From Mobula hypostoma (Eukaryota): a DNA stretch of 64,000 nucleotides. The notes beneath the pieces are model-generated. The model did no database searches and had not been told where the DNA came from. It saw only the letters and a list, made by a program, of their open reading frames with translations. This document shows, piece after piece, positions 1-64,000 of the stretch. Each line of letters starts with the position of its first letter. Positions within the stretch are counted from its first letter, which is position 1. The stretch covers positions 83,330,001-83,394,000 of the forward strand of contig NC_086108.1 of NCBI RefSeq assembly GCF_963921235.1, in the 5' to 3' direction. Made by a program: the position numbers and the translations under genes.

Positions 1-185
1 TGCAGGCCAGGCGGCCTCTGTGGAAAAAAGTACAGTCGACGTTTCGGGCTGAAACCCTTCAGCAGGACTCAGGATACATGGCTGTAAGTAGCAGGTCTGG
101 GTAAGCACGTGGTCGAAAAGTTGAACAGGATCACAACAGGGATCACAGTGGGACAGCAGTGAGAGTTTCACTGAACTCCCACCAT
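1..185 (-). mobile_element. Penelope-like pLTR fragment plus a putative ORF fragment
   Basis: Degenerate hammerhead at 34-69; 71-185 is homologous to the 70-bp unit at 56573. Confidence 0.65.
34..69 (-). ncRNA. Minimal hammerhead ribozyme motif, core mutated (CUGCUGA)
   Basis: AGUC-CUGCUGA-AGGG-UUUCAG-CCC-GAAACGUC-GACU. Confidence 0.55.
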
Positions 186-1229
186 GTAAATCCATTACAG
201 AACAGATATTACAGGAAACACTGAATGAATTCAGCTGATTATTATTTTTAATCACTAATTCCATTAATGAAATCTTTCAGGTTTACCTGAATTTACACTA
301 ATTTTCTTTTCAAAAATGAACTTCTTTCAAAGCAGAAATAACATTAAGAGAACCGAAAGGTAACAATAAATTTAATGCCTTTTTTGAAAAAGATTTAATT
401 AAAAAGATAGATTTAATCACAATAAGATTGTATCTGCGTGTTTTTTTTTCTCCATTCATCAGACATTTAGATTTCATGTACTTTTCTAGTAGAATTTGCC
501 TTTGTAATCTATATAGTAACTTCATTAGCTAAAAAAAAGTTGGTTCCCAAAAATTATGAACCTTCGTAAAAAATAAAAATTTTCAAAACAAGCTTACATA
601 AAACATTCAATCTTATTGATATTGATTTTGAACTACAGTATGTGCCACCATGACAACTAATGGCTTCAAGTGTCTGTCATAATTGCCTGAACCATAAAAA
701 GCAATAGAACCATAGATTATCTACATTAACCAATTATTCTTTTAATTACAGCATTTGTGGCAGACTCTCTTAGTACTATCACAGCAATTATGCACCATCT
801 TGTTTATTTTAAGCTGCAGATCAATCACTTCATGTAGATAGTAAAATACTAACCTGATAAAAAAATAATACCCATAATAGTTCTGTTGTATATTTCTTCA
901 AACCTTGGCACTATCACATTATTGTCCAACTTTCAAATAGGCGGGTACTCTCTCTGATTGGCAAGACCGATTTTTCATTGTTATCCAATAGGTGAATATT
1001 CATATTTGATTAGGAATTCAGCATTGCACATGCATTAGTCAATTATTTCTCCATGTCTCTCACTAGTTTTTCCTTTCATATTGCACAATCACAAACTGAG
1101 AATACTTAATACATCCTGCACTAAGGGCAACTATCTTATTTCTAGCTTTTTCTGCAATATCTGAATGATGCAATTTCCTCTACAAATATACGCAAATAAG
1201 ATAATCATAAGCTTTAGAACTTCATGATT

Positions 1230-1760
1230 CTTGATCAGATTGAAGAAGAGGCTAGATTAAGATCAAGGTCTCAGACACAGCTCAAACTCATGGCAGACCA
1301 GGCAACAGTGATCTCTACCCTTCTATATGCTACTCAGAGCTGAACTACTTAGAGCAAACATCTCTCAAGGCAGTGTAATAAATATCACTGCTGTCTGAAA
1401 AGAAATCTTCCAAATTCTCTTGAAGGTTAATGGAACCAACATCAGCATTCTCTCATGGACTAACATCTCTAACCTATTTACTCTTGGTTGGCTACATTAG
1501 ACAGGCCCCAATGTTCACAAGACGGACTCCAGACTCCCAAAATGGACACTACTTCCAAGCTCTATCATGGGAAGAGATAACCAAGCAAATAGAGAAAGTT
1601 ACAAAACAATGATCAAAGTTTCCTTGAAGTACAACTGTCCTTGGGAACTTCTGATTTGCCTTTATTTAAAGTGGAGAAGGAGCTTTCAAGTTGATATTGA
1701 CAACCTCAAAATTATATGTTGGGAACACAAAGAAAGTCCTGCCCAAGTGGTGGAAGGAGT
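1230..1760 (+). mobile_element. Degenerate RTE-like LINE 3' fragment (related copy at ~7250-7780)
   Basis: Decayed RT C-terminal motifs shared between the two copies. Confidence 0.45.
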
Positions 1761-2371
1761 GCACATCTCCACAAACTACTCACCCATCCAGTCAGGTACA
1801 TACTGCACCATTTCTATAGTGAAAATGACTCAAATACATTTATAATTAATTTTACTGAAAACTGCAAACAATTCAAAAAAAAAAATACCCTCATACAATA
1901 TTGTCCTTCAGAAACAGTCATTTACAGAAATGTTTCCTCAGCTCCTCTAAACAGGAGCATAAGGATTAAAAAGCATTAATTGAACACATTTATGTGATGT
2001 ATGTATACACTGAGTTAGTTAAAATATCACAGGGGAGAGGAGATAAGTTAATAGTCATAAAGACCTGCTACATCAGGCAAGTCAGTGTATGATTCAATTG
2101 TGGCATTCCATTGTCAAATTACCTGCCAATATATCTGAAAAATAATATATTCTAGGCAAGCTTGAATACAGAACCAGGTTAATAAAATTTATCCACACAT
2201 TTTAATTTCCTCTGCACTGACTGTGCAAAATTATAGCATTGTTGTTGCAAGACTCAATATTCAGAGTAAAACATGTTTTACAAGAAATCCATCACAGCAG
2301 GACTGCTGCAATACATCAGTAGTGATACATTATATAGATAGTAGTGGATACATGCAATATAGAACTGCAAT

Positions 2372-2720
2372 ATGTCTGAAAAGAGGATGCTGTCTAAGTT
2401 GCATGCCATCTTGGTCAATGTCTCCCATCCACTACATAATGTACTAGGTGGGCACAGGAGTACATTCAGCCAGAGACTCATTCCTCCAAGATGCAGCACA
2501 GAGCGTCATAGGAAGTCATTCCTGCCTGTGGCCATCAAACTTTACAACTCCTCCCTTGGAGGGTCAGACACCCTGTGCTGATAGGCTGGTCCTGGACTTA
2601 TTTCATAATTTCATAGTTACATATTACTATTTAACTATTTATGGTTCTATTACTATTATTTATGGTACGACTGTAACAAAAACCAATTTCCCCCTGGGAT
2701 CAATAAAGTATGACTATAAC
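2372..2720 (+). mobile_element. Rex1/Babar LINE 3' end
   Basis: SHPLH...TFSQRLIPPRCSTERHRKSFLPVAIKLYN; tail gggatcaataaagta. Confidence 0.8.
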
Positions 2721-4137: not shown

Positions 4138-4352
4138 AGCAAACAACAGGAATTCTGCAGATGCTGGAAATTCAAGCAACACACATAAAAGTTGCTGGTG
4201 AACGCAGCAGGCCAGGCAGCATCTCTAGGAAGAGATGCAGTCGACGTTTCAGGCCGAGACCCTTCGTCAGGACTAACTGAAGGAAGAGTGAGTAAGGGAT
4301 TTGAAAGTTGGAGGGGGAGGGGGAGATCCAAAATGAACTTTTATGTGTGTTG
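4138..4352 (-). mobile_element. Penelope-like pLTR with a short inverted arm, nested in CR1
   Basis: Exact 13-bp TSD cccttcttgaaca (4125-37, 4353-65); 4336-4353 is the reverse complement of 4176-4193. Confidence 0.85.
4239..4274 (-). ncRNA. Minimal type I hammerhead ribozyme motif
   Basis: AGUC-CUGACGA-AGG-GUCUCGG-CCU-GAAACGUC-GACU. Confidence 0.75.
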
Positions 4353-7984: not shown

Positions 7985-8830
7985 CTCAAGTGTTGCTCAC
8001 AGGGTTGTGGCCTGAGTCCTCTCCTCTACTCCCTTTACACCCACTACTGTGTTGCAACACACAGCTCCAATTTGCTGATCAAATTTGCAGATAACATGAC
8101 ATTGATCCCCTTATTTCTAGCAGTGGCAAGACTGCCTACAAGAGGAGAGGTTGATACCCTGACGCAGCGGTGCCAAGATAACAACCTCTCCCTTAATGTC
8201 TAAAAAACAAAAGAGCTGATTGTGGATTACAGGAGGAACGGAGACAGGCTCGCCCCAAACAACATCAAAGGGACTGCAGTTGAGACAGTTAGTTTCAAGT
8301 TGCTCGGTATACACATCACTGAAGATCTCACCTGGACTGTACACACCGGCTGTGTGGCAAAAAAAAGCATAACAGCGTCTCTTCCACCTTAGGTGACTGA
8401 AGAAGTTCGGAATGAGCCCCCAGATCCTCAAGATCTTCTACAGGGGCACCATTGAGAGCATCCTGACTGGCTGCATCACCGCCTGGTACAAGAACTGCAC
8501 CAATCTTGAACGCTGGGCACTGCAGAGAGTGGTTACGGACAGCCCAGAGAATCTGTGGACGTGAACTTCCCTCCAATGAGGACATTTTCAGCAGCAGGTG
8601 CGTAAAATAGTCCTGGAAGATCACCCCAACCATAAACTGCTTCAGCTGCTTCCGTATGGCAAATGGTACCGCAGCATTAAATCCGGGACCAACAGGCTAC
8701 GGAATGGCTTCTTTCTAGAAGCCCATTAGACTTATAAATTCACATGTCTGTGCATTGCAACAAAGTCATAACGCAAAGATTTTCACTCCCTCACGTTGTG
8801 GGACGGGTGTAAGATTTAAATAAATTCACT
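7985..8830 (+). mobile_element. Rex-Babar-like LINE RT C-terminal fragment
   Basis: QGCGLSPLLYSLYTH, KFAD, KTKELIVDYRR, FYRGTIESILTGCITAWY (degenerate). Confidence 0.8.
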
Positions 8831-13710: not shown

Positions 13711-14097
13711 AAGGTCAAATTTAGTGCTCTTGTGCTGTTTTTTAAAAAAGTCACCAGTTTCAGTTATTTAACTAAGTCTACAATCCAAGTAACAGGAACC
13801 GAGACAGTAGAATTAGCTCTACTTTAGCCTCTGAAGGAATTAAACTAAACCCTGAAGCACTGTTTTAAATTGGCCGTGGCTTACTCAAAGTAGCAATTTG
13901 CTGTCTTTAATTGGTATTTCTTCAGCTAGAAGATCTCAAAACTTAAAATGTGATCTTCAAGGAATAATATTTATGACATTCAAATGGAGCCCTCTAGGCA
14001 CTTGCTTGTGGAGCTGTAAATCATTCTCATTGATGAAATAAGTAATACACTGAAACATTGCTTTAGGTCAGCAATAGTTCCACTACTATTTTTTCCT

Positions 14098-14224
14098 CAA
14101 ATCTCTTACTATCTCTTCTTTCAGTTAGTCCTGACGAAGGGTCTTGGCCCGAAACGTCGACTGTACCTCTTCCTATAGATGCTGCCTGGCCTGCCACGTT
14201 CACCAGCATTTTTTGTGTGTGTGT
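14098..14224 (+). mobile_element. Short Penelope-like pLTR insertion
   Basis: 14-bp TSD tactattttttcct (14084-97, 14225-38); intact hammerhead. Confidence 0.85.
14127..14162 (+). ncRNA. Minimal type I hammerhead ribozyme motif
   Basis: AGUC-CUGACGA-AGGG-UCUUGG-CCC-GAAACGUC-GACU. Confidence 0.8.
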
Positions 14225-14529
14225 TACTATTTTTTCCTGCTACTTTCTTTCTCAACTGCAAAAGAAAACTTACTTTGCCCAGTGTGATCCGATTTGGACA
14301 ATAGTCTTACAATAATTATTTTAAATAGGAATGTGCTTGGTTGCTATAGAAAGCTGACATTATAGTTCAGATTCAGATTCATTTATTTATCAAATGTACA
14401 ATGAAATGTGTCATTTGTTTTAATGACCAAAACAACCTATGAATGTCCTGGGGCAGCCAACAAGTGTCACCACACATTCCAGTGCCAACAGATTTTCAGC
14501 AGAGCAACAAAAGCAACAACGCCAAAACA

Positions 14530-15188
14530 GACTGGGAGACCGCTTTGCTGAACATCTACGCTCTGTCCGCCAGAGAAAGCTGGATCTCCCAGTGGCCACA
14601 CATTTTAATTCCACATCCCATTCCCATTCTGACATGTCTATCCACGGCCTCCTCTACTGTAAAGATGAAGCCACACTCAGGTTGGAGGAACAACACCTTA
14701 TATTCCATCTGGGTAGCCTACAACCTGATGGCATGAACATCAACTTCTCTAACTTCCGCTAAGGCCCCACCTCCCCCTCGTACCCCATCTGTTACTTATT
14801 TTTATGCACACATTCTTTCTCTCACTCTCCTTTTTCTCCCTCTGTCCCTCTGAATATACCTCTTGCCCATCCTTTGGGTCGCCCCCCCCATCTTTCTTTC
14901 CGGACCTCCTGTCCCATGATCCTCTCGTATCCCCTTTTGCCTATCACCTGTCCAGCTCTTGGCTCTATCCCTCCCCCTCCTGTCTTCTCCTATCATTTTG
15001 GATCACCCCCTCCCCCTCCAAGTTTCAAATCCCTTACTCACTCTTCCTTCAGTTAGTCCTGACGAAGGGTCTCGGCCTGAAACGTCGACTGCACCTCTTC
15101 CTACAGATGCTGCCTGGCCTGCTGCGTTCACCAGCAACTTTGATGTGTGTTGCTTGAATTTCCAGCATCTGCAGAATTCCTGTTGTTT
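14530..15188 (+). mobile_element. 5'-truncated Penelope-like element: GIY-YIG endonuclease C-terminus plus pseudo-LTR with hammerhead
   Basis: RLGDRFAEHLRSV...PVATHFN...RLEEQHLIFHLGSLQPDGMNINFSNFR*. 12-bp TSD aacgccaaaaca (14518-29) / aacaccaaaaca (15189-200). Confidence 0.88.
15055..15090 (+). ncRNA. Minimal type I hammerhead ribozyme motif
   Basis: AGUC-CUGACGA-AGG-GUCUCGG-CCU-GAAACGUC-GACU, downstream of the GIY-YIG ORF. Confidence 0.78.
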
Positions 15189-16036: not shown

Positions 16037-16323
16037 TGTGGCGACCCATTTTCTAGCACCCACGAGCCGGCTCATGAAACAGCGCGCGCAGGCAGAGGGC
16101 CGGCCCCAAAAAGGGCACCAGGCCATCTTCACCAGCAGGGGAAAAATCCCGCACACGGAAAGGGTCTGGGAATATGCATTCCCCACAGCGGTCCCGCCCC
16201 AGGGAGGGTGGGAACGGGAAGGCTTTAAAGCAGGCCGCGAAGTTTGAATAAATCTCTTTATCGCAACTCCAACTCACCGACTCCGTGTGGTTATTCTAGC
16301 GCTGTGTGTAGCGCACCGCTACA
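16037..16323 (+). repeat. 5' LTR (287 bp)
   Basis: tgtggcgacc...caccgctaca; direct repeat of 20086-20367; contains TTTAAA and AATAAA. Confidence 0.95.
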
Positions 16324-16325
16324 TT

Positions 16326-16339
16326 TGGTGACCCCGACG
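16326..16339 (+). other. Primer binding site complementary to the tRNA-Trp 3' end
   Basis: TGGTGACCCCGACG, 2 nt after the 5' LTR; followed by hairpin ggcccaaa-cgata-tttgggcc. Confidence 0.85.
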
Positions 16340-16363
16340 GCCCAAACGATATTTGGGCCAGAG

Positions 16364-17001
16364 ATGACCGAGGCCGCATCTGTTCACGCAGTTTCGTTAC
16401 AACTGCCAGGCTTTTGGCCGCTGAGACTCCATCTGTGGTTTGAACAGGCAGAAGCACAATTCCACATTCGGCAGATAACCTCGGAGTCCACTCATTACTA
16501 CTACGTGCTGAGCTCTCTTGACCAAGAGACTGCTGTACAAGTTGAGGAGTTTATACAGTCGCCCCCGGAGAACGGCAAATACACAGCATTCAAAGCCCTG
16601 CTCATAAGGACTTTTGGACTCTCACGGCGCGAACGAGCACGCCGCTTAATGCACCTGGATGGTTTGGGAGACAGGCTGCCGTCGGCATTAATGAACGAAA
16701 TGCTGGCCCTGGCAGAAGGACACAAACCCTGCCTCATGTTTGAGCAGGCATTCCTAGAGCAACTGCCCGAGGACATACGCCTGCTGCTATCCGACACAGA
16801 TTTCAGCAACCCCCGGGAGGTGGCGGCCCGAGCAAATGTGTTGTGGAATGCCAAGAAGGAGAGAGGAGCATCCATTGCACAGATCACCAAGCCGCGGGCC
16901 CAACGACAGACCAGACCAGGCCCGGCAGTGGCGCCTACAAAACCCGGCGACGGGAGTGAGGAGCCCAACGAACAATGGTGCTTCTACCTAGACCACCCTG
17001 C
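16364..17001 (+). pseudogene. gag: Gypsy gag with a disrupted CHCC-type zinc knuckle
   Basis: MTEAASVHAVSLQLPGFW...WFEQAEAQF...WCFY, then a frame switch to RPPC. Confidence 0.8.
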
Positions 17002-20070: not shown

Positions 20071-20085
20071 GGGGGGGCGGGGTTA

Positions 20086-34071: not shown

Positions 34072-34109
34072 CAGTCGACGTCTCGGGCCAAGACTCTTCA
34101 TCAGGACTG
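34072..34109 (-). ncRNA. Minimal hammerhead motif, core mutated (GAGAC)
   Basis: CAGUC-CUGAUGA-AGAG-UCUUGG-CCC-GAGACGUC-GACUG. Confidence 0.55.
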
Positions 34110-37440: not shown

Positions 37441-39035
37441 GATTCAATTTGTCATAAAGCCTTACTGTGAGTAAATGATGGTGGATAGTGGGCGGCACAT
37501 TCCAAGAAATTATTCATTGGTGCTTTGAAATACTCTGACATTCCTTTAGTTTTCATTAAGATGAGTTGTGACCAAATGGAATGATTTTTGAATGTAAATT
37601 TGGCTCAGCATTTTCAAATGGCCATTTATAAAGAAAAATAAACTCAAATTAAGATCTACAATGAAGAGGGTTAATTTTGATAATGATAATACTGTCAAAA
37701 GGCAACATTAAATGGAAGTGGTAAGTGAAGTATAATGGGCAGCTAATTTGACATCCCTTGCTTTATTCCCTCATCTAGTGCCGTTGTTATGGTCTATGAG
37801 TTTAAAGAACCAGAAGCATAAAATTTAAATGTTAGAGTCATCAATTAAAGGGGGTAAAGTCCTCCCCACCATTGAGCACATTGACAGGGAGTGCTATCAC
37901 AGGAAAGCAACATCCATCAGCAGGGACCCCCACCAACCAGCTCATGTTCTCTTCTCATGGCTGCCATCAGGAAGAAGGGACAAGAGCCTCAGGTTCAGGA
38001 ATAGTTATTATCCCTCAGACATCAGGCTCTTGAACCAAAGGGGATAACTTCACTCACCCCCCATCACCGAAATGTTCCCACAACCAAAGGACTCACTTTC
38101 AAGGACTCTTCATCTCATGTTCTCAATATTTATTGCTTATATTCTTAGCATCATTTCTTTCTTTTTGTATTTGCACAATTTGTTGTCTTTAGCACACTGG
38201 TTGAGTGCCCTGTTGGTACAGTCTTTCATTGATTATATTATAATTATTATTCTTTAATGGATTTATTGAGTATGCCCACTAGAAAATTAATCTCAGGATT
38301 TTATATGGTGACATATATATACTTTGATAATAAATTTACTTTGAACTTTGATCAATTAATTGGTGCTGAACAGAACTACTAATTTATTTTTCCATCCTGT
38401 ATTAAAATATAAAATATTAACTTCTCAATAGATTTTTGCCCAATTCATTATCCTTGTGGTAGTTCAAAATAGTTGTAAAATTACAAGAGTATTGCATTTA
38501 GCTATAAGATACTTATCTAAGCAATTTTATGTTTAACATATTTATTCTGTCAGTGGGATTATGAATGTCACTACATCGTGATTTTTGTTTCTACTATTGA
38601 TTACATATTCAGAGTCTTATTTTGTTGTCCTAACAGATTAACTCTCTTGTCTGTTTAGAACTGAACTGAGGGAAATAACAATAAAGGATCCTTTCTGCGA
38701 TCTACCGAGAGAGAGAGAGAGTGATGAATTATGCAAAAAGAGATCAGAATATTAAGTGTGGCACTCCCCTCAGTAAACATTGAATTCACATATGGATTCA
38801 GAGAATTTAATGTTTGCTCTGCTTTAGTTGTCTATTACAGAACACCTCATTCACAGTGGAAATATCCAGTAATTTTGGAACCTTGCATAACTGATTTATG
38901 CCTAAACCTCTAGGGGCACGCTCAATTGTAGGAGCCACTTCAGATCCAATCAAAGGTGTATTTGTTCATCTTGTAACACACATCAAAGTTGCTGGTGAAT
39001 GCAGCAGGCCAGGCAGCATCTCTAGGAAGGGGTAC

Positions 39036-39071
39036 AGTCGACGTTTCGGGCCGAGACCCTTCGTCAGGACT
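39036..39071 (-). ncRNA. Minimal type I hammerhead ribozyme motif
   Basis: AGUC-CUGACGA-AGGG-UCUCGG-CCC-GAAACGUC-GACU. Confidence 0.8.
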
Positions 39072-39173
39072 AACTGAAGGAAGAGCTAGTAAAGAGATTT
39101 GAAAGTGGGAACGGGAGGGGGAGGGGGAGGGGGAGATCCCATTTTCAATCTCTTACTAGCTCTTCCTTCAGTT

Positions 39174-39209
39174 AGTCCTGACGAAGGGTCTCGGCCCGAA
39201 ACGTCGACT
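39174..39209 (+). ncRNA. Minimal type I hammerhead ribozyme motif
   Basis: AGUC-CUGACGA-AGGG-UCUCGG-CCC-GAAACGUC-GACU. Confidence 0.8.
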
Positions 39210-42199
39210 GTACCCCTTCCTAGAGATGCTGCCTGGCCTGCTGCGTTCAACAGCAACTTTGATGTGTGTTGCTTGAATTTCCAGCATCTGCAGAATTCCT
39301 CATGTTTACGTTTTTGTTCATCTTGTAAGTCTTTTTTTACAATTGCAAGTCACTGCTGAATACTAAAAACCATCAAGTGCTGCAGGGCTATCCCATCGGA
39401 GAGTTGCTCATAACAATGCATTATTGAGTTGTCACCTGGACTCGTTGCATACCATTGTGCTAAGTGGGTGCGTGATCCAAAAAAAAGAGTGAGTGATTGC
39501 CTTGCATGTTTTCATTATGATTGCAAGACGCTGTTGGACATTAGTAACTTAGAAAACTGCCAGGTCATTTCACTAGCGAGATTTACAGCCGGGGAGCTGT
39601 GTTGCCTTAGTTGTGACAAGGATTAGGACTAGGCTTAGGCCACAGTATTTCTTGTTACAGCCATCCAGGGGTGGAGAGCCGAGGTGGTGTGGGGAGAGAG
39701 CTGCTGGGTGCCCTGAAACCAATACTGGTTGGAGATTGGCCTCTTCTGTCCGTGCTGTGCTCCAGTGTTTGCTCAGTACTGCCCTCTGGTGTTTTATCAA
39801 TGGAAGAATAAACCGGACCGGGACAATCTACAGCCATACCACTCAAGGACTTGGGTTATATATTTTTTCTTTGTGATTGTACGTTCTTCTGAAATTGTAA
39901 CCATAAGTACTTTTGCAATATGTACTTAATGCAGTGTGCTGTTAGCAATGTGTTTTGCAACTTGGCCCCAGAGGAACACTGTTTTGTTTGGCTATATTAA
40001 TTGTATGGTTGAATGATAATTGAACTTGAAACTGCTGACAATTAGAGCCATGAAGTAAAGCAGGAGGAGCATTAAAAATTTAAAAGATGCAACCTTGGTA
40101 TGCCATCTCTGTGCATCTTTCATTGTTAATCATCTAATGTAACTTTACACCTTAGAGCACCAGTTGCTTTACTGGATATGTAGATTCTACTGTTGCGCTT
40201 CAAATGACATTACTGCCTGCATTATGTCAGTTCTAATTTGTTCCCAATGGTTCCACATCTTCAACACTAGAAAGGAACTTGGCCATCATCCAAAATCATT
40301 GTCATACCCTGTCGTTTTAATGCGACTGTTCTCAAGTAGATCAGAGGAATTCATTTATTCTTACATTGATTCATAAAGTTTAAACCTAAAGAGAAACTTT
40401 TAACAAAGGCATTCAAATAGGGTAATTAGAAATAGTAAAATTTAGAAATCATCGGAAAATATCTGAACCTTGTAGGACAAATATTGAAGCAATATTATCA
40501 AGATTATTATTATCAAGAGTAATTTCCATTCTGGAAATAAAACCAGACACATATAAACACAAGAGATCGTGCAGATGCTGGAAATCTTGAGCAGCACACT
40601 CAAAATGATGGAGGAACTCAACAAGTCAGGCAGCACCAATGGAGAGGAATAAACAGTTGACGTTTCAGGCCAAGACCCTTCATCAATTTTGTTAAGAATT
40701 GTAAAATACAGGGTGTAAATGAATCGAAATTTTTTAAAAAAAGATTTGAATGAAGATACTGTAGATCTTGCAATCATTTTGAGTTTCTTTACTTCTTGGA
40801 AATATTTCTGAGAGCATTCAGAAAGGAGCGAAGGTCCATTTATCCACTGCTTCAGTGAGAGAGAGAGAAAAAAAACCACCTTAACTTCTGGGATTTTGTG
40901 GTTAAAAAATAATCACAGAAACGGCTGATTAGCCTGAAAGTCACAGGAGTTTTCTTTTATTGACCACAAATACCTCCAGAAGTACATCCTATACAATAGT
41001 ATGGCTACTAATCTGACCTTAGAAAGGCTACAACAAGGTATAATGTTAATGCAATAGTCTTTAATTTATCTTCATGCTAATTAGGATCACTGCTTTTTGC
41101 CTAGTGTCCATCTTATTTTGACAGCAATCCACGGTCTCTGTACCAAAATCAAATATTTTCATTAGGTTCAATGAAACAAATTTAAGAATATTTCCGTCAA
41201 GAAAATGACGTGCAAATGAAGAAAGTAACAGAAATTTTTATCGAGCTCAGAAAATGCCCAAGGCATTACATAAGACAAATAACGATATTTGTCAAGTAAG
41301 GAGATCAATGATAATCAAAACCTACCTTAGAAGGAAAAAAGAAAGGTAAGAAGCAGAAACATTAAAAAGGAAATTTCTAGCCTTTCAGTCCATGCATCTG
41401 AAGGCACTTTCCTAATTGGGGAGCAACATAATTCAGCTGGGATTAAGGGGACAGAACAACAGACATGTCCAAGTCCCTAAGGGTTACAGCTCTGCTTGGG
41501 ATTATTAAAATAGGGAGGGAGTGAGGACAGTTAGCAATTGAAAACAAAAGTCAAAACACACTGGAGCCAATATAAGTTAGAAAACACAATGCCAGCAAAT
41601 GAATGGCAGCTGGTATAAGACCAAACAAGCCAAAGACTAGGAGAGTAGCCAAATAGTGTCATTATTCTGCAAGAACAGGGGATCAATGATCAATAACAGG
41701 ATATCAATAATCAATAAGTCACATGTAACAGACAAGACACCACACTATAGTAACTTCGCTTGGCATTAGAACAGAACAAAGATTACATTAGAATTTTTAA
41801 AAAACGGGACACTATCTTATCGTTCTGCTAGTGCCAGAGATGATGATCTTAATATCACCCACCCCATGGCAGCTATCAATCTTCAACTATGCCATTCAAT
41901 AATTAAAATTATTACTTTATCACAGAATTTCCTTTTGTAGACCTTGTCTTAATATCAATGATCTTTCAGCATCATATCAATTAAAACACAAAAGAAGAAT
42001 GATTTAATCATGTGTTTGAAAATGGTTTAGACCTGGCGTCCATGGAGCTCCTGGTTAATGGTAGGAGACCCATGACATAATAAAGGTTGGGAGCCCTGGT
42101 GTAGCGGGCAAGGGACAGGTTCATAGCTAAGGTAGAACTAACATTTGAAGAGGAAGATAAAATCCATCCAGAGATTGATTGAATAATGTACTTAGTACC

Positions 42200-46845: not shown

Positions 46846-47048
46846 CAGAGGCTCCAACTCCCGCTCATCTATCAGGTCAAACTCGGTCACAAAGTAGTAG
46901 AAATGTTTGTAGCATGTATTTACGTGGGCTTCAGCTCCCATCGTGGTAATCCGATCAAAGTGATGGATGTAAACATGTACAAAGACACGAAAAAGTCTGG
47001 TGAGAATCTTCTTACAAAGCTGCATGAAATTCTTAGGGAAGGGGACAC
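46846..47048 (-). CDS. MOB3C: MOB kinase activator 3, penultimate coding exon (203 nt)
   Basis: Translates to (G)[67 protein letters not shown]. Acceptor tgtttcactAG (47049-50), donor GTATGT (from 46845). The 203-nt size and phase 1/0 match vertebrate MOB3 gene structure. ILTRLF and RELEPL favour MOB3C over MOB3A/B; the paralog call is less certain than the family call. Confidence 0.93.
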
Positions 47049-47248
47049 CTAGTGAAACAGAAACGGAAGCAGAAAAATAGTAAATATAAAGGGTTGGAGG
47101 AAAGAACCCCTTGCACACATAAAAAGCTTTACAATATCACTTTAAGGATTCTCCTCCGAGGCAGCAGAGCAATAGAACAAGGATACGAATTTGGAAAACT
47201 GAGCCCGCCCTCAAATACTGAAAGGTCATCAAACTTCATGTAGTTATG

Positions 47249-47527: not shown

Positions 47528-50334
47528 TCATGTAGTTATGGAAGGAGCTTGAATAAATACATAGGTCAGGTTCATTGTTTCAGAATGACAGAATAAGTTA
47601 AGGTCATTTTTTATTATATCAGATTTCAAGACTTGTGAATCATTTTGGAATCACATTTAGTTGAATTTACTGCTATGAGTGCAGAGGTATAAGAAAACAC
47701 TTGCAGCATAGCATCATACAAGCAGGGTTCACAAGAAAAACATAAATTAAGCATAAATGATACTGAAATATTACAATAAAGAACATAAATTAAGCATAAA
47801 TTAATTTTAAAAAATTAAGCAAAGACACAATGGTCTCTTTACATTATATGGGTTTACAAAGAATACGATATAGAACCAGGGTACTGGACCCAGCCATCTA
47901 TGCTAATATCTGTGTTCCATTCAATTGCCCTGCTCGATTTTCTTGTCCAAGACAATTAGCAGAGCCCTCTATTCACCTCTCCCTCAAGAACACATCCAGG
48001 TTCCCCTTTAATACAAAAAACTCGTGAATGCAACCACTCCTTCTGGTAGGGAGGGAATTCCTCATTCTTCTTGAGAAGTGTCTTAGGTATTTCCTTGGCG
48101 TCTATCGTATATCAGGGCCTCTAGTTTTGCTGTTCCCCACAAATGGAAACATTCTCTCTGAATCCACTGTCAGAGGCCTTCTTCATTTTACCTGTCAACC
48201 TTCTTTTCTCAAGAGGAAAGGACGCTGACTGTTGATCCCTTGCTGATATGTAGATCTTAAGATTTCAGGTATCATTTTTGCAAATCTACTCTGCAATGCC
48301 TCTATTTCCTTTTTAAAATAAGGCAACCCAAACTGCATGCAGCATGTGATCTATTCATGGTTTAATGTAGAGCTAGTGTAATTTCCTTACTTTTCATTGT
48401 CCCACGATGTTATGCTGATCTTTCAACCTACTCCAAGATCAAATTTCGATTTCTTTTCTCCTGAACTAAACTCACATTTTTCCTTTGACATATTTAAGCC
48501 CCTATTAAACTCCTCTCTCCTCACCCTCGACTGCATCCATAACTTACAAGTTATAATATCCTTCCAGGTTCTTCAAAATTACTAAACATGACATTAGTTT
48601 TGCTATAATTGTGGAACAGAAGCATGCAGCCCTACCACCAATGTTTCCTTGAAGTAAAGATTTAATCTAGCAAAATTAGGATTCATGTAAACAAAAATTA
48701 TATTCAAGGTTTTACAACTATTAATTAAGTAGTAATATTGGGGCAGTTGGGCTAATGCTGAACTTTACAGACTAAATTCACATAACAGAATGGTAGCACT
48801 TTATGGCACAAAAGGAGGCCTTTAAGCTCTTTGAAATTATATCAAATTGATCTTTTATAACTTCTGATTGGAAGATTTCCAAGTCCAATATTTGTGTTAA
48901 ATGGATAAGCTAAATATTTACTCACCCATCTCAAATTTTTCCCACACAACACATAATCTTTTCTAGTAAGATTTGTGAGAAATAAACATTGTCTAGTTCA
49001 CCAGAATAACACTTTTGGCTTTCTTCAAAACTGCACTTCGTATCTTTTAAGACCAGCCATGAAAACAGACAGAATATCCATTTAGCATTTTAATGAAATG
49101 AAACCACCACCAGCAGTCCAATCTCAGTACTGCATGCTGTCGCCAGATTGTGTGCACTGAAGTGAGCCTTAAACCCAAAAATCTTCTACTTGCTTTTGCT
49201 AAATCTTGAGTTACACTCATGAATGTGGTGAGAATGGCTTCTCCATTCAGAGAATGAAGAAGTCAGGAAGGAGAAGGGAACAGGAGATAAATATAGAGAG
49301 ATGCAGTTACCAAAATCCACACTGGCAAGGATGATTTGATTTTATAGTCTAAGTCTATGCTTTTCAATTGCATGCAAATTTCCCTTATTTCATGTTACTG
49401 TGAAGTAAGAAGCAGAAACATGGTTACTTTTCACAAGTGGAGAGCTTCAGTAATAAAACAACCTCTCGGTCCGAAACGCCGACCATACTTCTTCCTATGG
49501 ATGCTGCCTGGCCTGCTGTGTTCTGCCAGCATTTTGTGTGCGTTGCTTGAATTTCCAGCATCTGCAGATTTTCTCATGTTTGCGTTTTTAAATGGCAATT
49601 GACAGAATAACATTAAATCATAAGTTAATTAATTTAAGACTTTTTTGCAGCCCTGATCATAAAGGGAAAATAGATTGAAATGCCTTCTGGAATAATATTA
49701 CAATGGGGATAAATTACGCAGATAATTCGGTGAAGAACACACATACAGCCGGCTACAGTTGACCGGTCAGCGTGTTCCTGACATCTGCACCTGTGTGTTG
49801 AGACATGGAAGTCAGGACATCTGTTAATGCTTTTAATAACCTACCACGCCACATCTGAACTCAGTACTTGCTAGTCCAGGGGCAGAGCTCAGTCATGCTG
49901 TACACCACTTCTAGTCCTTTGCACTCCCGAGTTCAAAACCAAAATATCATAATTTCTTAGCACACAGGCTTTGGAAAATACATTGTGCTTACAGAGAAAT
50001 GTACTTCTATAACTATTTTAATTCTGGAGTTAAATATAATGTGCTCAATATTATGGGTAATCATTCAAGTTTATTTATCATGCAACTATTCACATGGAAA
50101 AGATGTCAACTTCCAGTCAGCACAAGGAGCAACTTTATTCATCATACACATTTAAATGGATTAGGAATTTGCTGTAGTGTGTTGGTGCAATATGCAGCAA
50201 AAACCAACATTCAACAATTACAAAGAATCACATAAAAATAAATTAAAAGCATGGATATTGAATAATATGTGCATAAATACATAAATACTGGCATCTATTT
50301 ACAATGTATCTTTCAATTAATTGCTAAAAGGTAT

Positions 50335-53900: not shown

Positions 53901-54429
53901 AGTAAACTCATTACATATTGCGGTCAGTAAAATAACTTGTGAAGAATATTGCCTCCAGGCTGGAGACTTTAACAAAATATTGGCATTTTCTAATATACGT
54001 TATCTGCTGTAACAGTTGATACCCTGACGAAACAAGGATGAAGTGCATTTGAAAAAAGGTAACAGATACCACTGTTGTAGTGTGCACTGATAAAAGGAAT
54101 GGATAAAGTTCAATGAAAGTTTCACCACTCACACTAACTTATTTATTGGTGTCTGATCTATTAACTGTTCCCAGAAATTCACCCATCCAGTTGTGAAATG
54201 TAGACACAAAAGACTGCAGAAGCTGGAACCTGGAGCAAAGCACGAGTTGCTGGAGGAACTCAGTGGGGCAGATAGCACCTATAGAGGGAAATGGACAAGG
54301 TGGTCCAGATGAAGGTTGTTAATCTGATACATCAACAGTCAACATCCTTCCACAGACGCTGCATGAGCCCTTCCAGCATCTTGACATTTGCTCCAGTTGC
54401 AAACTGTTACATGTCCTGTTAACAGCAGA

Positions 54430-55950: not shown

Positions 55951-56407
55951 ATAGAACCTAAAACCTATCTCAGCCTCTTTAATGTCAGCTTGCTGCGTAC
56001 ATAGCAAAAGCAGTTGTGAGAGCACAGGAACTTGGAGAGGAAAAGTGCATTTTAGAAGGTTGACCATGGAAGAAGAGGATGGCAGATTGGACAGAAAATG
56101 GCACTACACTAAGGAAGAAGATTGGAATGGGGAAAAAAAGCATGGGAGGAAAGAATGATGGTATCTGAATCAGATTTATTATCACTGGCAGGTGACATGA
56201 AATTTGTTAACTTAGCAGCAGCAGTTCAATGCAATACATAATTTAGCAGAGAGAGAAAAAAATAAAACATAATAAATAAACAAGTAAATCAATTACATAC
56301 ATTGAATACAAACAACAGGAATTCTGCAGATGCTGGAAATTCAAGCAACATACATCAAAGTTGCTGGTGAACGCAGCAGGCCAAGCAGCATCTGTAGGAA
56401 GAGGTAC

Positions 56408-56443
56408 AGTCGACGTTTCAGGCCGAGACCCTTCGTCAGGACT
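56408..56443 (-). ncRNA. Minimal type I hammerhead ribozyme motif
   Basis: AGUC-CUGACGA-AGG-GUCUCGG-CCU-GAAACGUC-GACU. Confidence 0.75.
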
Positions 56444-56572
56444 AACTGAAGGAAGAGTGAGTAAGGGATTTGAAAGTTGGAGGGGGAGGGGGAGATCCAA
56501 AATGATAGGAGAAGACAGGAGGGGGAGGGATAGAGCCGAGAGCTGGACAGGTGATAGGCAAAAGGGGATACG

Positions 56573-56712
56573 AGTGTGGTCGAAAAGTTGAAGAGCCGAA
56601 GAAATTACAGATGGGGAGCAGTGAGAGATGGTTTCACTGAACAGTGTGGTCGAAAAGTTGAAGAGCCGAAGAAATTACAGATGGGGAGCAGTGAGAGATG
56701 GTTTCACTGAAC
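56573..56712. repeat. Perfect tandem duplication, 2 x 70 bp
   Basis: agtgtggtcgaaaagttgaagagcc...gtttcactgaac at 56573-56642 and 56643-56712. Confidence 0.95.
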
Positions 56713-56844
56713 CATCGTATCCCCTTTTGCCTATCACCTGTCCAGCTCTCGGCTCTATCCCTCCCCCTCCTGTCTTCTCCTATCATTTTGGATCTCCCCC
56801 TCCCCCTCCAACTTTCAAATCCCTTACTCACTCTTCCTTCAGTT

Positions 56845-56880
56845 AGTCCTGACGAAGGGTCTCGGCCTGAAACGTCGACT
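56845..56880 (+). ncRNA. Minimal type I hammerhead ribozyme motif
   Basis: AGUC-CUGACGA-AGG-GUCUCGG-CCU-GAAACGUC-GACU. Confidence 0.75.
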
Positions 56881-59800
56881 GCACCTCTTCCTATAGATGC
56901 TGCTTGGCCTGCTGCGTTCACCAGCAACTTTGATGTATGTTACATACATTGAATAGATTTTTTTAAGTGTGCAAAAATAGAAATACTGTATATTAAAAAA
57001 AAGTGAGGTAGTGTCCAAAGTTTCAATGTCCATTTAGGAATTGGATGGCGGAGGGGAAGAAGCTGTCCCTAAATCTCTGAGTGTGTGCCTTCGGGCTTCT
57101 GTACCTCCTACCTGATGGTAACAGTGAGAAAAGGGCATGCCCTTTCCTTCTGGAAAGGAAATTGGAAATAAAGACAAGACGACAAGTTATTAAAGGAGGG
57201 CAGGGACAAAGGTCAAAAGGAAGTTTGGACAGGAGACTGTTGGTGGTGGTTGGAAAAAAGGAGATTGTAGTGGATATAAGCCAGAAGAAGGTGCATATTT
57301 TTTGGACTGTACTCCCAACCAAGCATTGTACTCAGCCTCTACCTATATACCCCTACTGCACAGATCAATGCAGAAGACCCACAAAAGATACAGTCGAGGT
57401 ATATAAAATTATAAAAGGCCTAAAAAGAGTAAACTGTAAAGGTCAATTTTCCTTAGCAGAAAGATCATCAAACAGGGAGCACAGATTAAAAGTTATGTGC
57501 TGGGGGATTCTATACATGAAGGACAATCAGATGTTTAACCAGTCATTCATACACTGAAGTGCTCAGAATTTTGTGCAAGTCATCAAGTTGTTCTTCTTCC
57601 TCAGTGATTAACATCGTGTGATGCTCAACATGAACAAATCAGAGGTGCAATTGTCATTCGGACCTTGGAAGATTTTAATGCCAATAACAAATTTTATCTG
57701 GAATATCTCCATGTCATCACAAAGGTCATTCCCATTGTTCATTCACTCCTATAGACCACACAACATGCACAGCAAAGTGGATCTTTGCTTGTACTGTATT
57801 TGGAAAGTTGTTAGACAAGTAAACATTTTAAAATACTGGAGCTAAATAAGGATAAATCTCAATGTGCAAACATAGTCTGTAACAATTTAAATCACATTAT
57901 CGGAAGTCTGCCTTCAGATTTGTCTATAAGCATTCCAATCATCAGTATGGTTTTATTCAAAGCAGTGTCCAATAGGTAAAATGTCCATTTTCATTTTATA
58001 AAGTTAGGATTTGTGTAGACAATAACAATTTATATCTGAGAAAATAAAACTTAAACTTGTTTCACCTCTCATCTCATGCTTAGTTTACTTCCCAAGATAG
58101 CCTGAAACTGCAGATTTGTGAAACAGCTCAGCATTTCATGAACATCAGCCTCCCCTCAGTGATGTCTGTCCACACTTCTTATTGCCTCGACTATGCAGCC
58201 AACAGAATCAAAGACCCCCACCTACCCCAGGTATTCTCTTTTCTTCCTCCATCCGTAGAAGATACAAAAGCCTTGAAGCACTTAACACCAGCCTCAAAGA
58301 GAGCTTTCATTCCACTGTTGTAAGACTACTGAACAGTCCCCTAGTACAATAATATAAATTCTTGACATCATGTTCTACCTCATTATGGCCTTGTCCCCTA
58401 GGGTCTGCACGGCACTTTCTCTGTGACATTATTGTACAATCTGTTATTGCTTTCCCTGGACTACCTCCATGCATTGTTGTAAGGATGGCATGCCAAAGAT
58501 TTTCACTGTCCCTCGGTACATGTGACAGAAATAAACGAATTCACCAATTTGCCTTTCAGCACTTGATAAGAATTCAGTTGCATGATTAGATTAAGTCCAG
58601 AAGAATTAAGTTGTTGGAGAAGAAAAGCGAGAGAAATATTCACATGACAGAAGCAGTGAGTCAGTATCTGGGATAAAACCATCAGTACGAGATGAAACAA
58701 GGTGGCAGAAGTGCAGAGAGAAACTTTAACTTTTGCAGAAGAGGACCAGGTAATAAAAACAAAGAGAAAAGCGGGTGATTACATTGGGTCTGAACCGTGA
58801 AGAATTGGCAGATTCTCAAACAACAGGCAATTAAGACCCAAAACAACTGAAGAAGAAGAGCTAAAGAAGGGCCAGGTCATCTAGATGTTCCTTCAAGGAA
58901 AATACTCAATTTGTACCATTATAGAAGTTCCCTAATTTATTACAACTTGCAGGGGAAAATGAATAAACCTGATCGGATTCAAGAGATGGATTTCATTTAA
59001 TTCCATGGTAAATTCAGAATTTTGAATCATCTACAAAATTACATTTGTCACTTTCAGTCACATAAACAATTTGTTTCAAGTTTCTGTGACACAGTCACTA
59101 ATGTTGGTTGACATGGCTTCATAAATCTACTTAAGAGAGGACATCTTCAGAGATGTCATACAGTAATGGAATAAGGCACTCAAAATGAATTCTGCCAGGT
59201 TCCATTATTGGCATGCCATCACTTACAGAATCATACCAGCAAGTGCATGCAATAGAAACGCAATTCTCTCTCAGGATGAATGGCATTTTGTTTTTAAGCT
59301 CATTTCTATCAGAAAAGAAATAAGAAAGATACGTATTTACATAACACCTTTCACAACCTCAGGACATCAGAAAGCATTTTAGCATCATGTTTTGACATTA
59401 CAGCAGCTGTTCCAGGTGGTAGGCTTGTCCAATCACTCTGATCTGGGCACAATTGCCTTAGTGTGGTTGACATTTCTCCAGCATCATTTACGCATGTGGC
59501 GATGTCATCTGCACTCATCACTACCTCACTGACGGACACCGGTGCAGCAAGATGTAACTCAGGAGCTTTATTCTTAACTCCCAAAAGAACAAGGAGTGAA
59601 CCGCCATAGCAAAAAGGTTCCCATTGAGATACTGGTGCACAGATCTCTTCAACTAGTTGCCTGAACGTTCAACGCTTTGCATTTTTCACACATTGTTGTT
59701 GGGTCTCATACAGTAATGGAATAAGACAGAGAGAAACAAACTGCATTCTCCAAGTGTCTTGGGCACCACTCATAGTATAAGACTCCACCTGTGCCAACAA

Positions 59801-60052: not shown

Positions 60053-60193
60053 ACAAACAAGAGAAAATCTGCAGATGCTAGAGATCCAAGCATTGCACAC
60101 AAATTGCTGGAGGAACTCAGCAGGCCAGGCAGCACCTATCGAAAAGAGTACAGTCGACGTTTCAGGCCAAAACCCTTCGACTGTACTCTTTTC
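60053..60193 (-). mobile_element. Truncated Penelope-like pLTR with a 17-bp fold-back
   Basis: gaaaagagtacagtcga (60141-57) and its reverse complement tcgactgtactcttttc (60177-93). Confidence 0.75.
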
Positions 60194-61400: not shown

Positions 61401-61809
61401 TATGTATTTATAGTACTTTTTATGTATTGCTCTGTAACGCTGCCAGAAAACAACAAAATTAATCTTATATGTCAGTGATATTAAATCTGATTCTGATTTT
61501 CTTACATTCAACCTATTCCATGGCTGTGTGGGACCCAGATGCTTAATTCTGCTGTACTGGCATTTCTATGTTACTCTCATCGACCTTGGCTGATACCTCA
61601 TCTGGATTTGTGTTTAAGAGCTGCTCCTAGCCGTGTGACACAGGGTTATCAAAGGTCGATATTGAAAGAAATATTTTCACAGCAAAATAAATTCAGCCCC
61701 TTTCATCTCGCCTACACAGCAGCAACCCCTTCCAACAAGTTAAAAAAAATTAAGCTGCAGGAACAAAGGATGATTTTCCTTCAGATATACTGCTTCACCC
61801 CTTGAGTTG

Positions 61810-62725
61810 TTCATCTTCAGCAAGAATGGTGAGTCAGCATACAGAGAGGAGGTGCAGCAGCTAATGGACTGGTGCAGAGACAACAACCTGTCAACAAAAC
61901 AAAAGAGATGGTTGTTGACTTCAGGATGACACGGAGCGACCACTCACTGCTGAACATCGACGACTCCTTCGTAGAGATCGTTAAGAGCACCAAATTTCTT
62001 GGTGCTCACCTGGCGGGATTCTCACCTGGTCCCTCAACACCAGCTCCATAGCAAAGAAAGCCCAGCAGCGTCTCTACTTTCTGCAAAGGCTGAGAAAAGT
62101 CCATCTCCCACACCCCATCCTCACCACGTTCTACAGAGGTTGTATTGAGAGCATCCTGAGCAGCTGCATCACGGCCTGGTTCAGAAATTGTACCATCTCT
62201 GATCGCAAGACCCTACAGCAGATAGTGAGGTCAGCTGAGAAGATCATCAGGGTTTCTCTTCCCGCCATTACAGATACTTACACCACACGCTGCATCCGCA
62301 AAGCAAACAGCATTATGAAGGACCCCACGCACCCCTCATACAAACTCTTCTCCCTCCTGCCATCTGGCAAAAGGCACCGAAGCATTCAGGCTCTCACAAC
62401 CAGACTATGTAACAGTTTCTTCCCCCAAGTCATCAGACTCCTCAATACCCAGAGCCTGTACTGACACCAACCTACTATGTCCTCTACTGTGCCTACTGTC
62501 TTGTTTATTATTTATTGTAGTGTCTGCACTGTTTTGTGCACTTTATGCAGTCCTGGATAGGTCTGTGGTCTGGTGTAGTTTTTGTGTTGTTTTCTTACGT
62601 AGTTCAGTGTAGTTTTTGTATTGTTTCATGTAGCACCACGGTCCTAGAAAACACTGTCTCATTTTTACTATGTTCTTACCGGCAGTTATGGTTGAAATGA
62701 CAATAAAAAGCGACTTGACTTGACT
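61810..62725 (+). mobile_element. Rex-Babar-like LINE 3' fragment
   Basis: [46 protein letters not shown]; aataaa plus a (gactt)n tail. Confidence 0.85.
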
Positions 62726-63499
62726 TCCTGCAGCTTGTTTTGAGTTGAGACCCTGGATCAGGTTTCAATCCAAAGGACTGACAATTCCTTTGTTTAAATA
62801 GATGTTACTTGACCCTCTGAGCTCTTGCAGCGCAGTTTTTTTTTTGCTCCAGATTCCAGCAGCTGTAGACCCATGTTCTCCTTTCTAATGAGCAGTCTGG
62901 TTGCAGAGTTGTGCATACAGTTTTGTTTTTACATGGAAAGGGTTAAAATGATCTGCTGGAAACGGAGAGGTGATTAGCAAGCCTGCCGGCGTGGAGGATT
63001 TGCATTTTTCCCCTCTGATCTGATTTCGGTTTTGAGCTTAGCATTAAATATGGAAGCAACAAAGGCAATTCAGTAACAGGCCCAGCTTTGCCTCAAACAA
63101 ATTCACAGAATGATTTGAATTTTTGGTGAATCGCAGATAAAGTTTCCGTACAACCTAAAGAATGTTCAACTAGGATTCTAATATATTAATCTCATTCCAC
63201 AAATAAATATTGTTCATCATGACGCATGAGTGTCTATGTTATAATTGCGCAACATGTCAGAGAGACCACACTTGGAGTAGTATGTTCAGTTCTAATCAGC
63301 CTGTTATACAGGAAGCATGAGATTAAACTGGAAAGAGTGAAAAAAAGGATATGGCCAAGTTTCAAAAGACTGAGAAAGGTTGGGTCTTTAGAGCACATAC
63401 ACAGTGGCCAATATATTAGGTCTCTTTTGTACTCTAATAAAGTGGCCACTGAGTGTATGTTTGTGGTTTTCTGCTGCTGTAGCCCATCCACTTCAAGGT

Positions 63500-64000
63500 T
63501 CTGCACGCCACAACAGACAGGATCTCCTGGTTGCCACCCACTTCAACTCTGCTTCTCATTCGGATATGTCCATACATGGCCTCCTCTACTGCCATGATGA
63601 GGCTAAACTCAGGTTGGAGGAGCAACACCTCATATACCATCCAGGTAGTCTCCAGCCCCTTGGGATGAACATTAAATTCTGCAACTTCCGGTAATTCCCT
63701 CCCCCTCCCTTCTCCTATCCCAGTTTCACTCTGCCCCCTCCCCCAGCTGCCTACTACCTCCCTCATAGTTCCACCTCCTTCTACTACCCATTGTGTTTTC
63801 CCCTATTCCTTCTTCACCTTTCCTGTCTATCACCTCCCTGCTTCCCCTCCCCCACCCCTTTACCTTTCCCCTTACTGGTTTTTCCACCTGGAACTTACCA
63901 GCCTTCTCCTTCCCACCCTCTCCCCACCTTCTTTATAGGGCCTGTGCCCCTTCCCTCTTCAGTCCTGACGAAGGGTTCCGGCCCGAAACGTCGACTCATC
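63500..64000 (+). mobile_element. Penelope-like element, second subfamily (GIY-YIG C-terminus plus hammerhead)
   Basis: VATHFNSASHSDMSIHGLLYCHDEAKLRLEEQHLIYHPGSLQPLGMNIKFCNFR*, then a pyrimidine-rich tract and a hammerhead at 63961. Confidence 0.85.
63961..63996 (+). ncRNA. Minimal type I hammerhead ribozyme motif
   Basis: AGUC-CUGACGA-AGGG-UUCCGG-CCC-GAAACGUC-GACU. Confidence 0.8.

What the first reader, a model, noticed from the sequence alone, without database searches (positions are those of the whole stretch)
34..63996. Dispersed family of minimal hammerhead ribozymes (at least 10 copies in 64 kb) carried by Penelope-like elements
Seen: a 36-nt motif AGUC-CUGA(C/U)GA-[3-bp stem II]-GAAACGUC-GACU recurs at 34, 4239, 14127, 15055, 34072, 39036, 39174, 56408, 56845 and 63961, with remnants at ~40654, ~49470 and ~60152. 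Stem I is AGUC/GACU, the cleavage triplet is GUC, and stem III is replaced by the palindrome ACGU. Established: Penelope-like elements carry such minimal type I hammerheads, which are thought to cleave as dimers through the palindrome. Inference: at this density the genome would hold a very large, probably unannotated ribozyme family.
Basis: partly seen in the sequence, partly recalled or inferred. Interest (0 to 1): 0.8.

Follow-up and report, generated by a model that had tools for sequence, protein, structure and literature searches.

The report
Minimal hammerheads in Penelope retroelement ends
These repeats are real: they are the end pieces of a very abundant Penelope-type jumping gene that carries a known tiny self-cutting RNA motif; most copies are likely inert stumps, and the way copies end suggests the RNA was usually copied uncut.

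Summary
Confirmed, with corrections. The 36-nt motif occurs 13-14 times in the window on both strands (8 with an intact core). It is the minimal type I hammerhead in the pseudo-LTR of a young Penelope-like element (3.5-kb unit, 1,016-aa RT plus GIY-YIG protein, Neptune-type linker). The genome holds 88,531 intact cores and an estimated 0.46-0.69 million copies. The kind is published (Cervera and De la Pena 2014), and this scan noted the same family on other pieces of this genome. Of 100 consecutive young copies, 18 begin at the 5' edge of stem I and 4 near the cut site; two insertions look copied from a back-spliced 310-nt circle with the cut site intact; an A6C-core lineage spread to at least 4,490 copies. 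So the RNA that is copied is likely uncut, and cleavage, never shown here, is probably conditional and limited to a few hundred tandem copies. New member of a known kind.

The parts
34..69 (-). Minimal hammerhead motif with A6C core, older subfamily; element runs off the window's left end
   Evidence: A6C subfamily
4140..4336 (-). Young 5'-truncated copy with tail; intact motif at 4239-4274; followed by a very short opposite arm; 13-bp target-site duplication
14097..14222 (+). Short copy without tail; intact motif at 14127-14162; 14-bp target-site duplication
14528..15188 (+). Young copy: last ~80 codons of the GIY-YIG endonuclease (stop at 14762), pyrimidine-rich UTR, intact motif 15055-15090 (predicted cut after 15086), tail
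   Evidence: 90% identical to residues 936-1016 of the full protein
34073..34108 (-). Older copy, core broken (A14G)
38975..39307 (.). One two-armed (head-to-head) insertion: motif 39036-39071 on minus (arm without tail) and 39174-39209 on plus (arm with tail); 16-bp target-site duplication
   Evidence: (I7)
40655..40690 (-). Decayed remnant, begins at the front edge of the motif
49464..49581 (+). Remnant truncated inside stem II (5' half of the core absent), with tail
54214..54366 (.).
56309..56941 (.). One two-armed insertion: motif 56408-56443 on minus (arm with tail) and 56845-56880 on plus (arm without tail); between the arms two 70-nt copies of a piece of the ORF's 5' end (56573-56712); 16-bp target-site duplication
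   Evidence: (I2, D20)
60055..60187 (-). Older remnant, 5' core letters replaced; motif position 60152-60187
63500..63996 (+). Copy of another subfamily: endonuclease remnant (stop at 63694), UTR, intact motif 63961-63996; runs off the window's right end
   Evidence: 73% identical to residues 951-1014 of the full protein

Best explanation
The motif is the minimal type I hammerhead in the terminal repeat of a young, hugely amplified Penelope-like retroelement, and the copies in this window are truncated insertion products that are likely inert. Shown: the full unit is about 3,515 nt, with one hammerhead 166 nt before the start codon and one about 300 nt after the stop; insertions end at one of two fixed 3' points (+65 to +70 or +101 to +104 from the cut site), often have two arms pointing outward with a tail on one arm only, and carry 10-16-bp target-site duplications. 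Inferred: the GIY-YIG domain makes a staggered cut, both DNA ends can prime reverse transcription at the two internal start points just downstream of the hammerhead, and synthesis commonly stops at the 5' edge of stem I, most likely because the RNA starts there (about 0.55; a splice-related end or an enzyme stop are the alternatives). That is why the motif is over-represented: it lies in the first 100-140 nt to be copied. Inferred: cleavage at GUC needs two motifs on one RNA to pair through ACGU, probably with help from the element's protein; this would be open to at most a few hundred partial-tandem copies, and the RNA used for insertion is usually uncut.
For: Context: open frames of 1,009-1,046 aa from the first Met in 20 of 20 fetched long-frame copies, 97.7% mean DNA identity, 12 of 20 with a sense motif on both sides of the ORF; RT and GIY-YIG matches, both below Pfam's cut-offs; closest named protein from a bamboo shark, 72%. 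Structure: in 17 sequences (3 window copies, 14 metagenome matches picked one per type, failures included) 81.6% of cells pair against 54.1% shuffled, 7 of 8 pairs change on both sides, slid controls 19-45%; 8 of the 121 metagenome loci carry remnants of the same protein within 400 nt. Insertion anatomy in the first 100 anchored young copies of contig C1: 18 head-to-head pairs, 17 of 18 with exactly one tail, 16 of 18 with a duplication of 10-15 bp. 5' ends: 18 of 100 at -35..-27, 4 of 100 at -3..+3 (p = 1.4e-7 and 0.44 against an even spread over -100..+21); older copies 7 of 41 at -45..-25 and 0 of 41 at -5..+5. Rarity of a partner: 457 tail-to-ORF read-through junctions against 95,951 young end repeats. 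Uncut template: two separate insertions with 4 and 2 copies of one ORF-donor/stem-I-acceptor junction, 310-nt period, cut site intact. Monomers fold into a rod that pairs core letters GACG with CGUC; the active dimer is 9-10 kcal/mol above two such rods in the nearest-neighbour model. Literature: monomers inactive and dimers weak (PMC4209133); protein-assisted cleavage, not needed for insertion in vitro, two internal RT starts (PMC11167929).
Against: No cleavage, transcription start or RNA end was measured; no run on record as RNA was available. The core letters of the metagenome set are fixed by my search pattern, so only the stems are informative, and related sequences can beat the shuffles without structure. 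Folding z-scores of single motifs are unremarkable (-0.3 to -1.6). The 100-copy sample comes from 3 Mb of one contig and needs an exact 33-nt anchor. Many ends at the stem I edge are fold-back junctions, where the end is fixed only to a few bases. A religated circle would also show an intact cut site, so the two circle-derived insertions do not exclude cleavage. One of 100 copies starts exactly at the cut site. Trans-dimers between the many transcribed solo copies are not excluded.
Confidence: 0.78

Rival explanations
1. A genome-wide active ribozyme population: with tens of thousands of intact cores, many in introns, transcripts would find partners in trans through ACGU and cut host pre-mRNAs.
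For: 88,531 intact cores, one per 39 kb; 48 of 100 young copies have a complete motif with perfect stem I; the minus-strand motif at 56408 lies in sense in what is probably an intron of a MOB-family gene.
Against: Monomers predicted to lock in an inactive rod; the 56408 motif has its own 236-nt reverse complement 141 nt away; published monomers inactive and dimers weak (PMC4209133); equal counts on both strands say nothing either way; core letters decay like the flank.
Confidence: 0.08
2. The motif no longer works as a ribozyme in this lineage; it is kept as a promoter-start, splice-acceptor or protein-binding element of the terminal repeat.
For: An A6C lineage spread to 4,490 copies against 1,373 for A6G and A6U together; A6C lowers activity in magnesium in two other hammerheads (PMC3088659, PMC7151607); the youngest lineage has U at 11.1 in 32 of 34 sense motifs; stem I's 5' strand follows a pyrimidine tract and AG that was used as a splice acceptor; Naiad elements thrive without hammerheads (PMC8557442).
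Against: All core letters, four CpG-overlapping ones included, are kept in the source lineages while the upstream UTR and the downstream linker changed between subfamilies; stems covary in distant relatives around the same core; G-U at 10.1-11.1 is also seen in 3 of the 14 metagenome rows; the Anolis motif cleaves with its protein (PMC11167929).
Confidence: 0.12
3. The short copies are an independent non-autonomous element (retrozyme or SINE) that spreads through its own self-cleaved RNA circles.
For: Most copies are short and non-coding; small tandem arrays exist (310-nt and 262-nt periods); a 2026 preprint derives animal retrozymes from Penelope terminal repeats.
Against: 5' ends form a continuum from 35 nt to full length and match the autonomous element at 87-99%; no fixed unit; arrays are rare (6 junction matches in the genome for the 310-nt unit) and their joint is a splice junction or a microhomology, not the cut site.
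Confidence: 0.02

Closest known systems
Minimal hammerheads (min-HHR) in pseudo-LTRs of metazoan Penelope-like elements (Cervera and De la Pena 2014, PMC4209133; parts 1-2 of 4 read, supplement file 2 searched, file 1 not available)
   Same: Type I layout, full core, 4-bp stem I, unpaired base between 9 and 10.1, palindromic 15.2-16.2 with no loop 3, place in both terminal repeats, mostly solo copies, close pairs on opposite strands.
   Different: About ten times more intact cores than the highest vertebrate count given there (about 9,000 in Xenopus tropicalis); shorter stem II; U at 11.1 in the youngest lineage; an A6C lineage. No cartilaginous fish found in the text or in the searched supplement.
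Poseidon element of Anolis carolinensis, PAc (Frangieh et al. 2024, PMC11167929; parts 1-2 of 4 read)
   Same: Two fixed 3' ends that differ by a tail, both target strands usable, hammerhead upstream of the RT start points, no sign of cut RNA as template.
   Different: Here the hammerhead and both 3' ends lie before the start codon, not inside the ORF; the protein has the CX2-5CxxC linker that Poseidon lacks.
Neptune clade of endonuclease-positive Penelope-like elements (as defined in Craig et al. 2021, PMC8557442; passages read)
   Same: Single ORF, RT then C-terminal GIY-YIG, C-x4-C-x2-C in the linker, partial tandems, inverted 5' arms, one-sided 30-40-bp tail.
   Different: No tree was built; no microsatellite targeting seen in the duplications.
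Animal non-LTR retrozymes (Cervera and De la Pena 2020, PMC7229834, passages read; Li et al. 2026 preprint 10.64898/2026.07.22.740005, part 1 of 5 and passages read)
   Same: Type I hammerheads at very high copy number (up to 120,000 in axolotl by the section title); Penelope origin proposed.
   Different: Those are tandem non-coding units with canonical hammerheads; these are dispersed truncations of an autonomous element with a minimal motif.

Membership tests
Minimal type I hammerhead of Penelope-like elements | Core C3-U4-G5-A6-N7-G8-A9 and G12-A13-A14, A15.1/U16.1, H17 | tested here: met
   8 of 13 window copies; 88,531 genome matches against 35 for the reversed pattern
Minimal type I hammerhead of Penelope-like elements | Short stems I and II supported by covariation | tested here: met
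   7 of 8 pairs change on both sides among 17 rows; 81.6% paired against 54.1% shuffled. Within this genome there is almost no two-sided change.
Minimal type I hammerhead of Penelope-like elements | Unpaired base between 9 and 10.1; palindromic 15.1-16.1 in place of helix III | tested here: met
   A in 67 of 68 young copies; ACGU in the majority of every subfamily group once CpG decay is allowed for
Minimal type I hammerhead of Penelope-like elements | G10.1-C11.1 pair | tested here: inconclusive
   C in 19,468 and U in 57,109 exact matches; U in 32 of 34 motifs beside open ORFs: a G-U wobble or a shifted A-U register
Minimal type I hammerhead of Penelope-like elements | Self-cleavage as a dimer | not testable with these tools
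   Only folding energies; no RNA run on record
Endonuclease-positive Penelope-like element | One ORF with RT and C-terminal GIY-YIG | tested here: met
   1,016-aa frame; RVT_1 E 5.9e-5 and GIY-YIG E 9e-4, below curated cut-offs; 458 homologues at E <= 1e-30, with RVT_1 and GIY-YIG among their precomputed domains
Endonuclease-positive Penelope-like element | Pseudo-LTRs from partial tandems, inverted 5' arm, one-sided tail, target-site duplication | tested here: met
Neptune clade | CX2-5CxxC linker between RT and endonuclease | tested here: met
   C-x4-C-x2-C read in the protein; shared with Nematis
Neptune clade | Placement in an RT tree with named Neptune references | not tested
   No named reference set was held
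Non-LTR retrozyme | Tandem non-coding units each with a complete hammerhead, independent of an ORF | tested here: not met
   No tandem unit among the window copies; 7 same-strand neighbour pairs within 4.5 kb among 100 copies; two small arrays elsewhere

The most novel reading that the evidence does not exclude
In this family the hammerhead sits at the very start of the element's RNA, where its stem I doubles as transcription start and splice acceptor; it is held shut in an inactive rod while the RNA is copied, so insertion uses uncut linear RNA or back-spliced circles, and cutting is an optional late switch that lineages can weaken (A6C, U11.1) without losing the power to spread. Hundreds of thousands of dated insertions would make this genome a direct record for the open question of what Penelope hammerheads do.
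Probability: 0.35. Interest if true: 0.62.

Novelty: new member of a known kind. Interest (0 to 1): 0.36.

Why it matters
The motif and its host element type are known, so the find is not a new ribozyme class. Its value is scale and youth: 88,531 intact cores, at least 36 nearly full open reading frames among 150 scored hits, and regular insertion junctions. The role of hammerheads in Penelope elements is still stated as unclear in print (PMC8557442), and this family gives countable evidence that the copied RNA is mostly uncut. It also matters for annotation: descriptor searches would report about 10^5 'ribozymes' here, most of them without a partner.

Tried and rejected
Rfam: no hammerhead match. 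Pfam did not recognise the two endonuclease remnants in the window; they were placed through the full protein. RNA evidence: no RNA holder listed; four runs of assembled contigs, RNA only by guess, covered the stretch but cannot show ends, strand or splicing. Idea that the UTR between stop codon and hammerhead is spliced out in copied RNA: 0 genome matches for that junction. Idea of a second acceptor downstream of the cut site (YAG before the hairpin): not kept in one subfamily, and the letters are explained as well by a long stem with the tail; dropped. Idea that ends at stem I mark a spliced first exon: the flanks share no sequence and in three solo copies the duplication abuts -30 to -33. 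Core-versus-flank test in young copies: not significant. My subfamily labels were too loose to separate the older groups cleanly; only the young-versus-old contrast is used. Lunse et al. 2017 (PMC5785218) is not held; it is cited only through the review PMC6765202 (passages read). Paper searches for this family in cartilaginous fishes found no description; the 2026 preprint sampled one chondrichthyan, and its supplements, which I could not see, may list this family.
Full report
Observation. With up to 3 mismatches the pattern matches 11 times in the window and never in 100 shuffles; a profile built from the window copies finds 14 places. Five main copies and two remnants lie on the minus strand; the motif always reads in the sense of the element. 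Eight of 13 have an intact core; the copy at 34 has A6C and that at 34073 has A14G. Stem II has four pairs and a four-base loop, after an unpaired A. Rfam gives no hammerhead match.

The element. Two window copies (15055, 63961) are preceded by the end of an open frame. Searching the genome with it led to long frames with RT and GIY-YIG similarity. A search with the N-terminus scored the best 150 of 4,977 candidates; 36 of the 150 lie in open frames of at least 1,010 codons. I fetched 20 of those 36: the protein is typically 1,016 aa from the first Met, the copies are 97.7% identical on average, the unit is about 3,515 nt, and 12 of 20 have a sense hammerhead on both sides of the ORF, at -166 and about +3,349 from the start codon. 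The linker holds C-x4-C-x2-C, the mark given for Neptune and Nematis (PMC8557442, passages); no tree was built. The closest named protein is from a bamboo shark at 72%, so the host is probably a cartilaginous fish (inference).

Numbers. Exact matches with an intact core: 19,468 with C at 11.1, 57,109 with U, and 88,531 with any 13 letters between the core halves, against 35 for the reversed pattern. Sixty evenly spaced 10-kb stretches gave 98 profile matches, one per 6.1 kb, which scales to about 570,000 copies (0.46-0.69 million). The window (14 in 64 kb) is thus ordinary for this genome, and about 16% of copies keep the core. The highest vertebrate count in PMC4209133 is about 9,000; axolotl has up to 120,000 canonical hammerheads in a far larger genome (PMC7229834, section title).

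Is it a hammerhead fold? Within the genome the stems hardly vary on both sides. I aligned 3 window copies with 14 stretches chosen one per sequence type, including four that pair poorly and are probably chance. Of 136 cells 81.6% pair (shuffles 54.1%, 0 of 500 as high), 7 of 8 pairs change on both sides, and slid controls give 19-45%. The core is fixed by the pattern and is not evidence. Between subfamilies of this genome the 36 letters persist while the upstream UTR and the downstream linker changed. Among 68 young copies spanning the motif, non-CpG core letters differ in 4 of 612 and flank letters in 15 of 1,020 (p = 0.16), and CpG core letters in 13 of 340: inserted copies decay much as neutral DNA does.

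How copies are made. I took the first 100 matches on contig C1 to an anchor downstream of the motif, so the sample is not selected for the hammerhead. The 3' ends fall at +65..+70 or +101..+104 from the cut site (14 of 15 solo copies with a duplication of at least 10 bp). Eighteen neighbour pairs are head-to-head; 17 of 18 have a tail on exactly one arm and 16 of 18 share a 10-15-bp duplication. The window's pairs 39036/39174 and 56408/56845 are of this kind, each with a 16-bp duplication, so they are two insertions, not four. Inverted arms, one-sided tails and duplications are described for Penelope elements (PMC8557442, PMC3846280, passages), and two internal RT starts with both strands extended were shown for the Anolis element (PMC11167929). 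I infer that each end of a staggered cut primes at one of the two starts.

Where copies begin. Eighteen of 100 5' ends lie at -35..-27, the 5' strand of stem I; 4 of 100 lie within 3 nt of the cut site and one exactly at it. Older copies show the same: 7 of 41 at -45..-25, none at -5..+5 (4 of 45 could not be placed, and fold-back arms inflate some long values). A cut template would end at 0. The simplest reading is an uncut RNA that starts at stem I, whose letters resemble an initiator (recalled consensus); Drosophila Penelope has an internal promoter (PMC2377424, abstract and one section). The stretch before stem I is also a splice acceptor: one insertion holds four and another two copies of a junction that joins a GT donor 276 nt past the cut site to the base after the pyrimidine tract and CAG, with a 310-nt period and their own duplications. 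In Drosophila virilis the intron end also maps to the 5' end of helix I (PMC4209133).

Can it cut? Not tested. Minimal motifs were inactive alone and weak as dimers (PMC4209133); the Anolis motif cleaved only with its protein and was not needed for insertion in vitro (PMC11167929). Here single motifs are predicted to fold as a rod that traps core letters, and the active dimer lies 9-10 kcal/mol above two rods, tertiary contacts not counted. A partner on the same RNA needs a partial tandem; only 457 young copies run from the tail into the ORF leader against 95,951 young end repeats. Head-to-head pairs put the two motifs on opposite strands and give each its own antisense. One older lineage spread with A6C (4,490 matches against 1,373 for A6G plus A6U; shared flanks in the 12 loci read), a change that lowered activity in magnesium in two other hammerheads (PMC3088659 passages; PMC7151607 abstract and results), and the youngest lineage has U at 11.1 in 32 of 34 motifs. 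Against a dead motif: every other core letter is kept in the source lineages, CpG-overlapping ones included.

Surroundings. A MOB-family exon lies at 46846-47055 on the minus strand and the preceding exon 7.5 kb beyond the window's right end, so the copies from 49464 on are probably intronic. The rest of the window is repeats.

Verdict. Real, correctly recognised, of a published kind, and noted before by this scan in the same genome. Paper searches found no description in cartilaginous fishes, but repeat libraries and some supplements could not be seen. The copy number is high; the number of motifs that can plausibly cut is small. The durable interest lies in the junction statistics, which point to an uncut template.

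Noticed in passing
window 16068-20367 (+): LTR retrotransposon with two 256-nt terminal repeats 94% alike and gag-, protease-, RT/RNase H- and integrase-like frames, broken into several pieces.
   Followed up: partly
window 46846-47055 (-); G000:C50:83401464-83401808 (-): Two exons of a MOB-family kinase-activator gene; the last exon was not located.
   Followed up: partly
window 28995-30163 (+): Decayed Tc1/Sleeping Beauty-type transposon.
   Followed up: no
window 61985-62464 (+), with similar pieces near 8424-8525: Frame that matches Pfam ALKBH8_N; probably the tail end of a LINE (recalled association, not tested).
   Followed up: no
window 56573-56712; L051, L191, window 100-130: Short pieces of the Penelope ORF's 5' end, often ending near the same place about 255 nt past the cut site, turn up at insertion junctions; possibly a third reverse-transcription start.
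   Followed up: no
L364 (G000:C2:157815900-157818600) and L371 (G000:C50:58410986-58414007): Two insertions made of 310-nt repeats with an exact donor-to-acceptor joint, as expected from a back-spliced circle copied more than once round.
   Followed up: yes
L365 (G000:C2:122542000-122544000): A 262-nt direct repeat of the end region joined at a short microhomology, not at splice sites.
   Followed up: partly
L243-L363 (metagenome contigs): An unrelated animal repeat family with the same minimal motif also shows many fold-back junctions at the motif's 5' edge, so the pattern may be general for these elements.
   Followed up: no
young copies, +18 to +90 from the cut site: A conserved hairpin and a predicted longer stem with the tail lie between the hammerhead and the two 3' ends; a candidate binding site for the RT.
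   Followed up: partly
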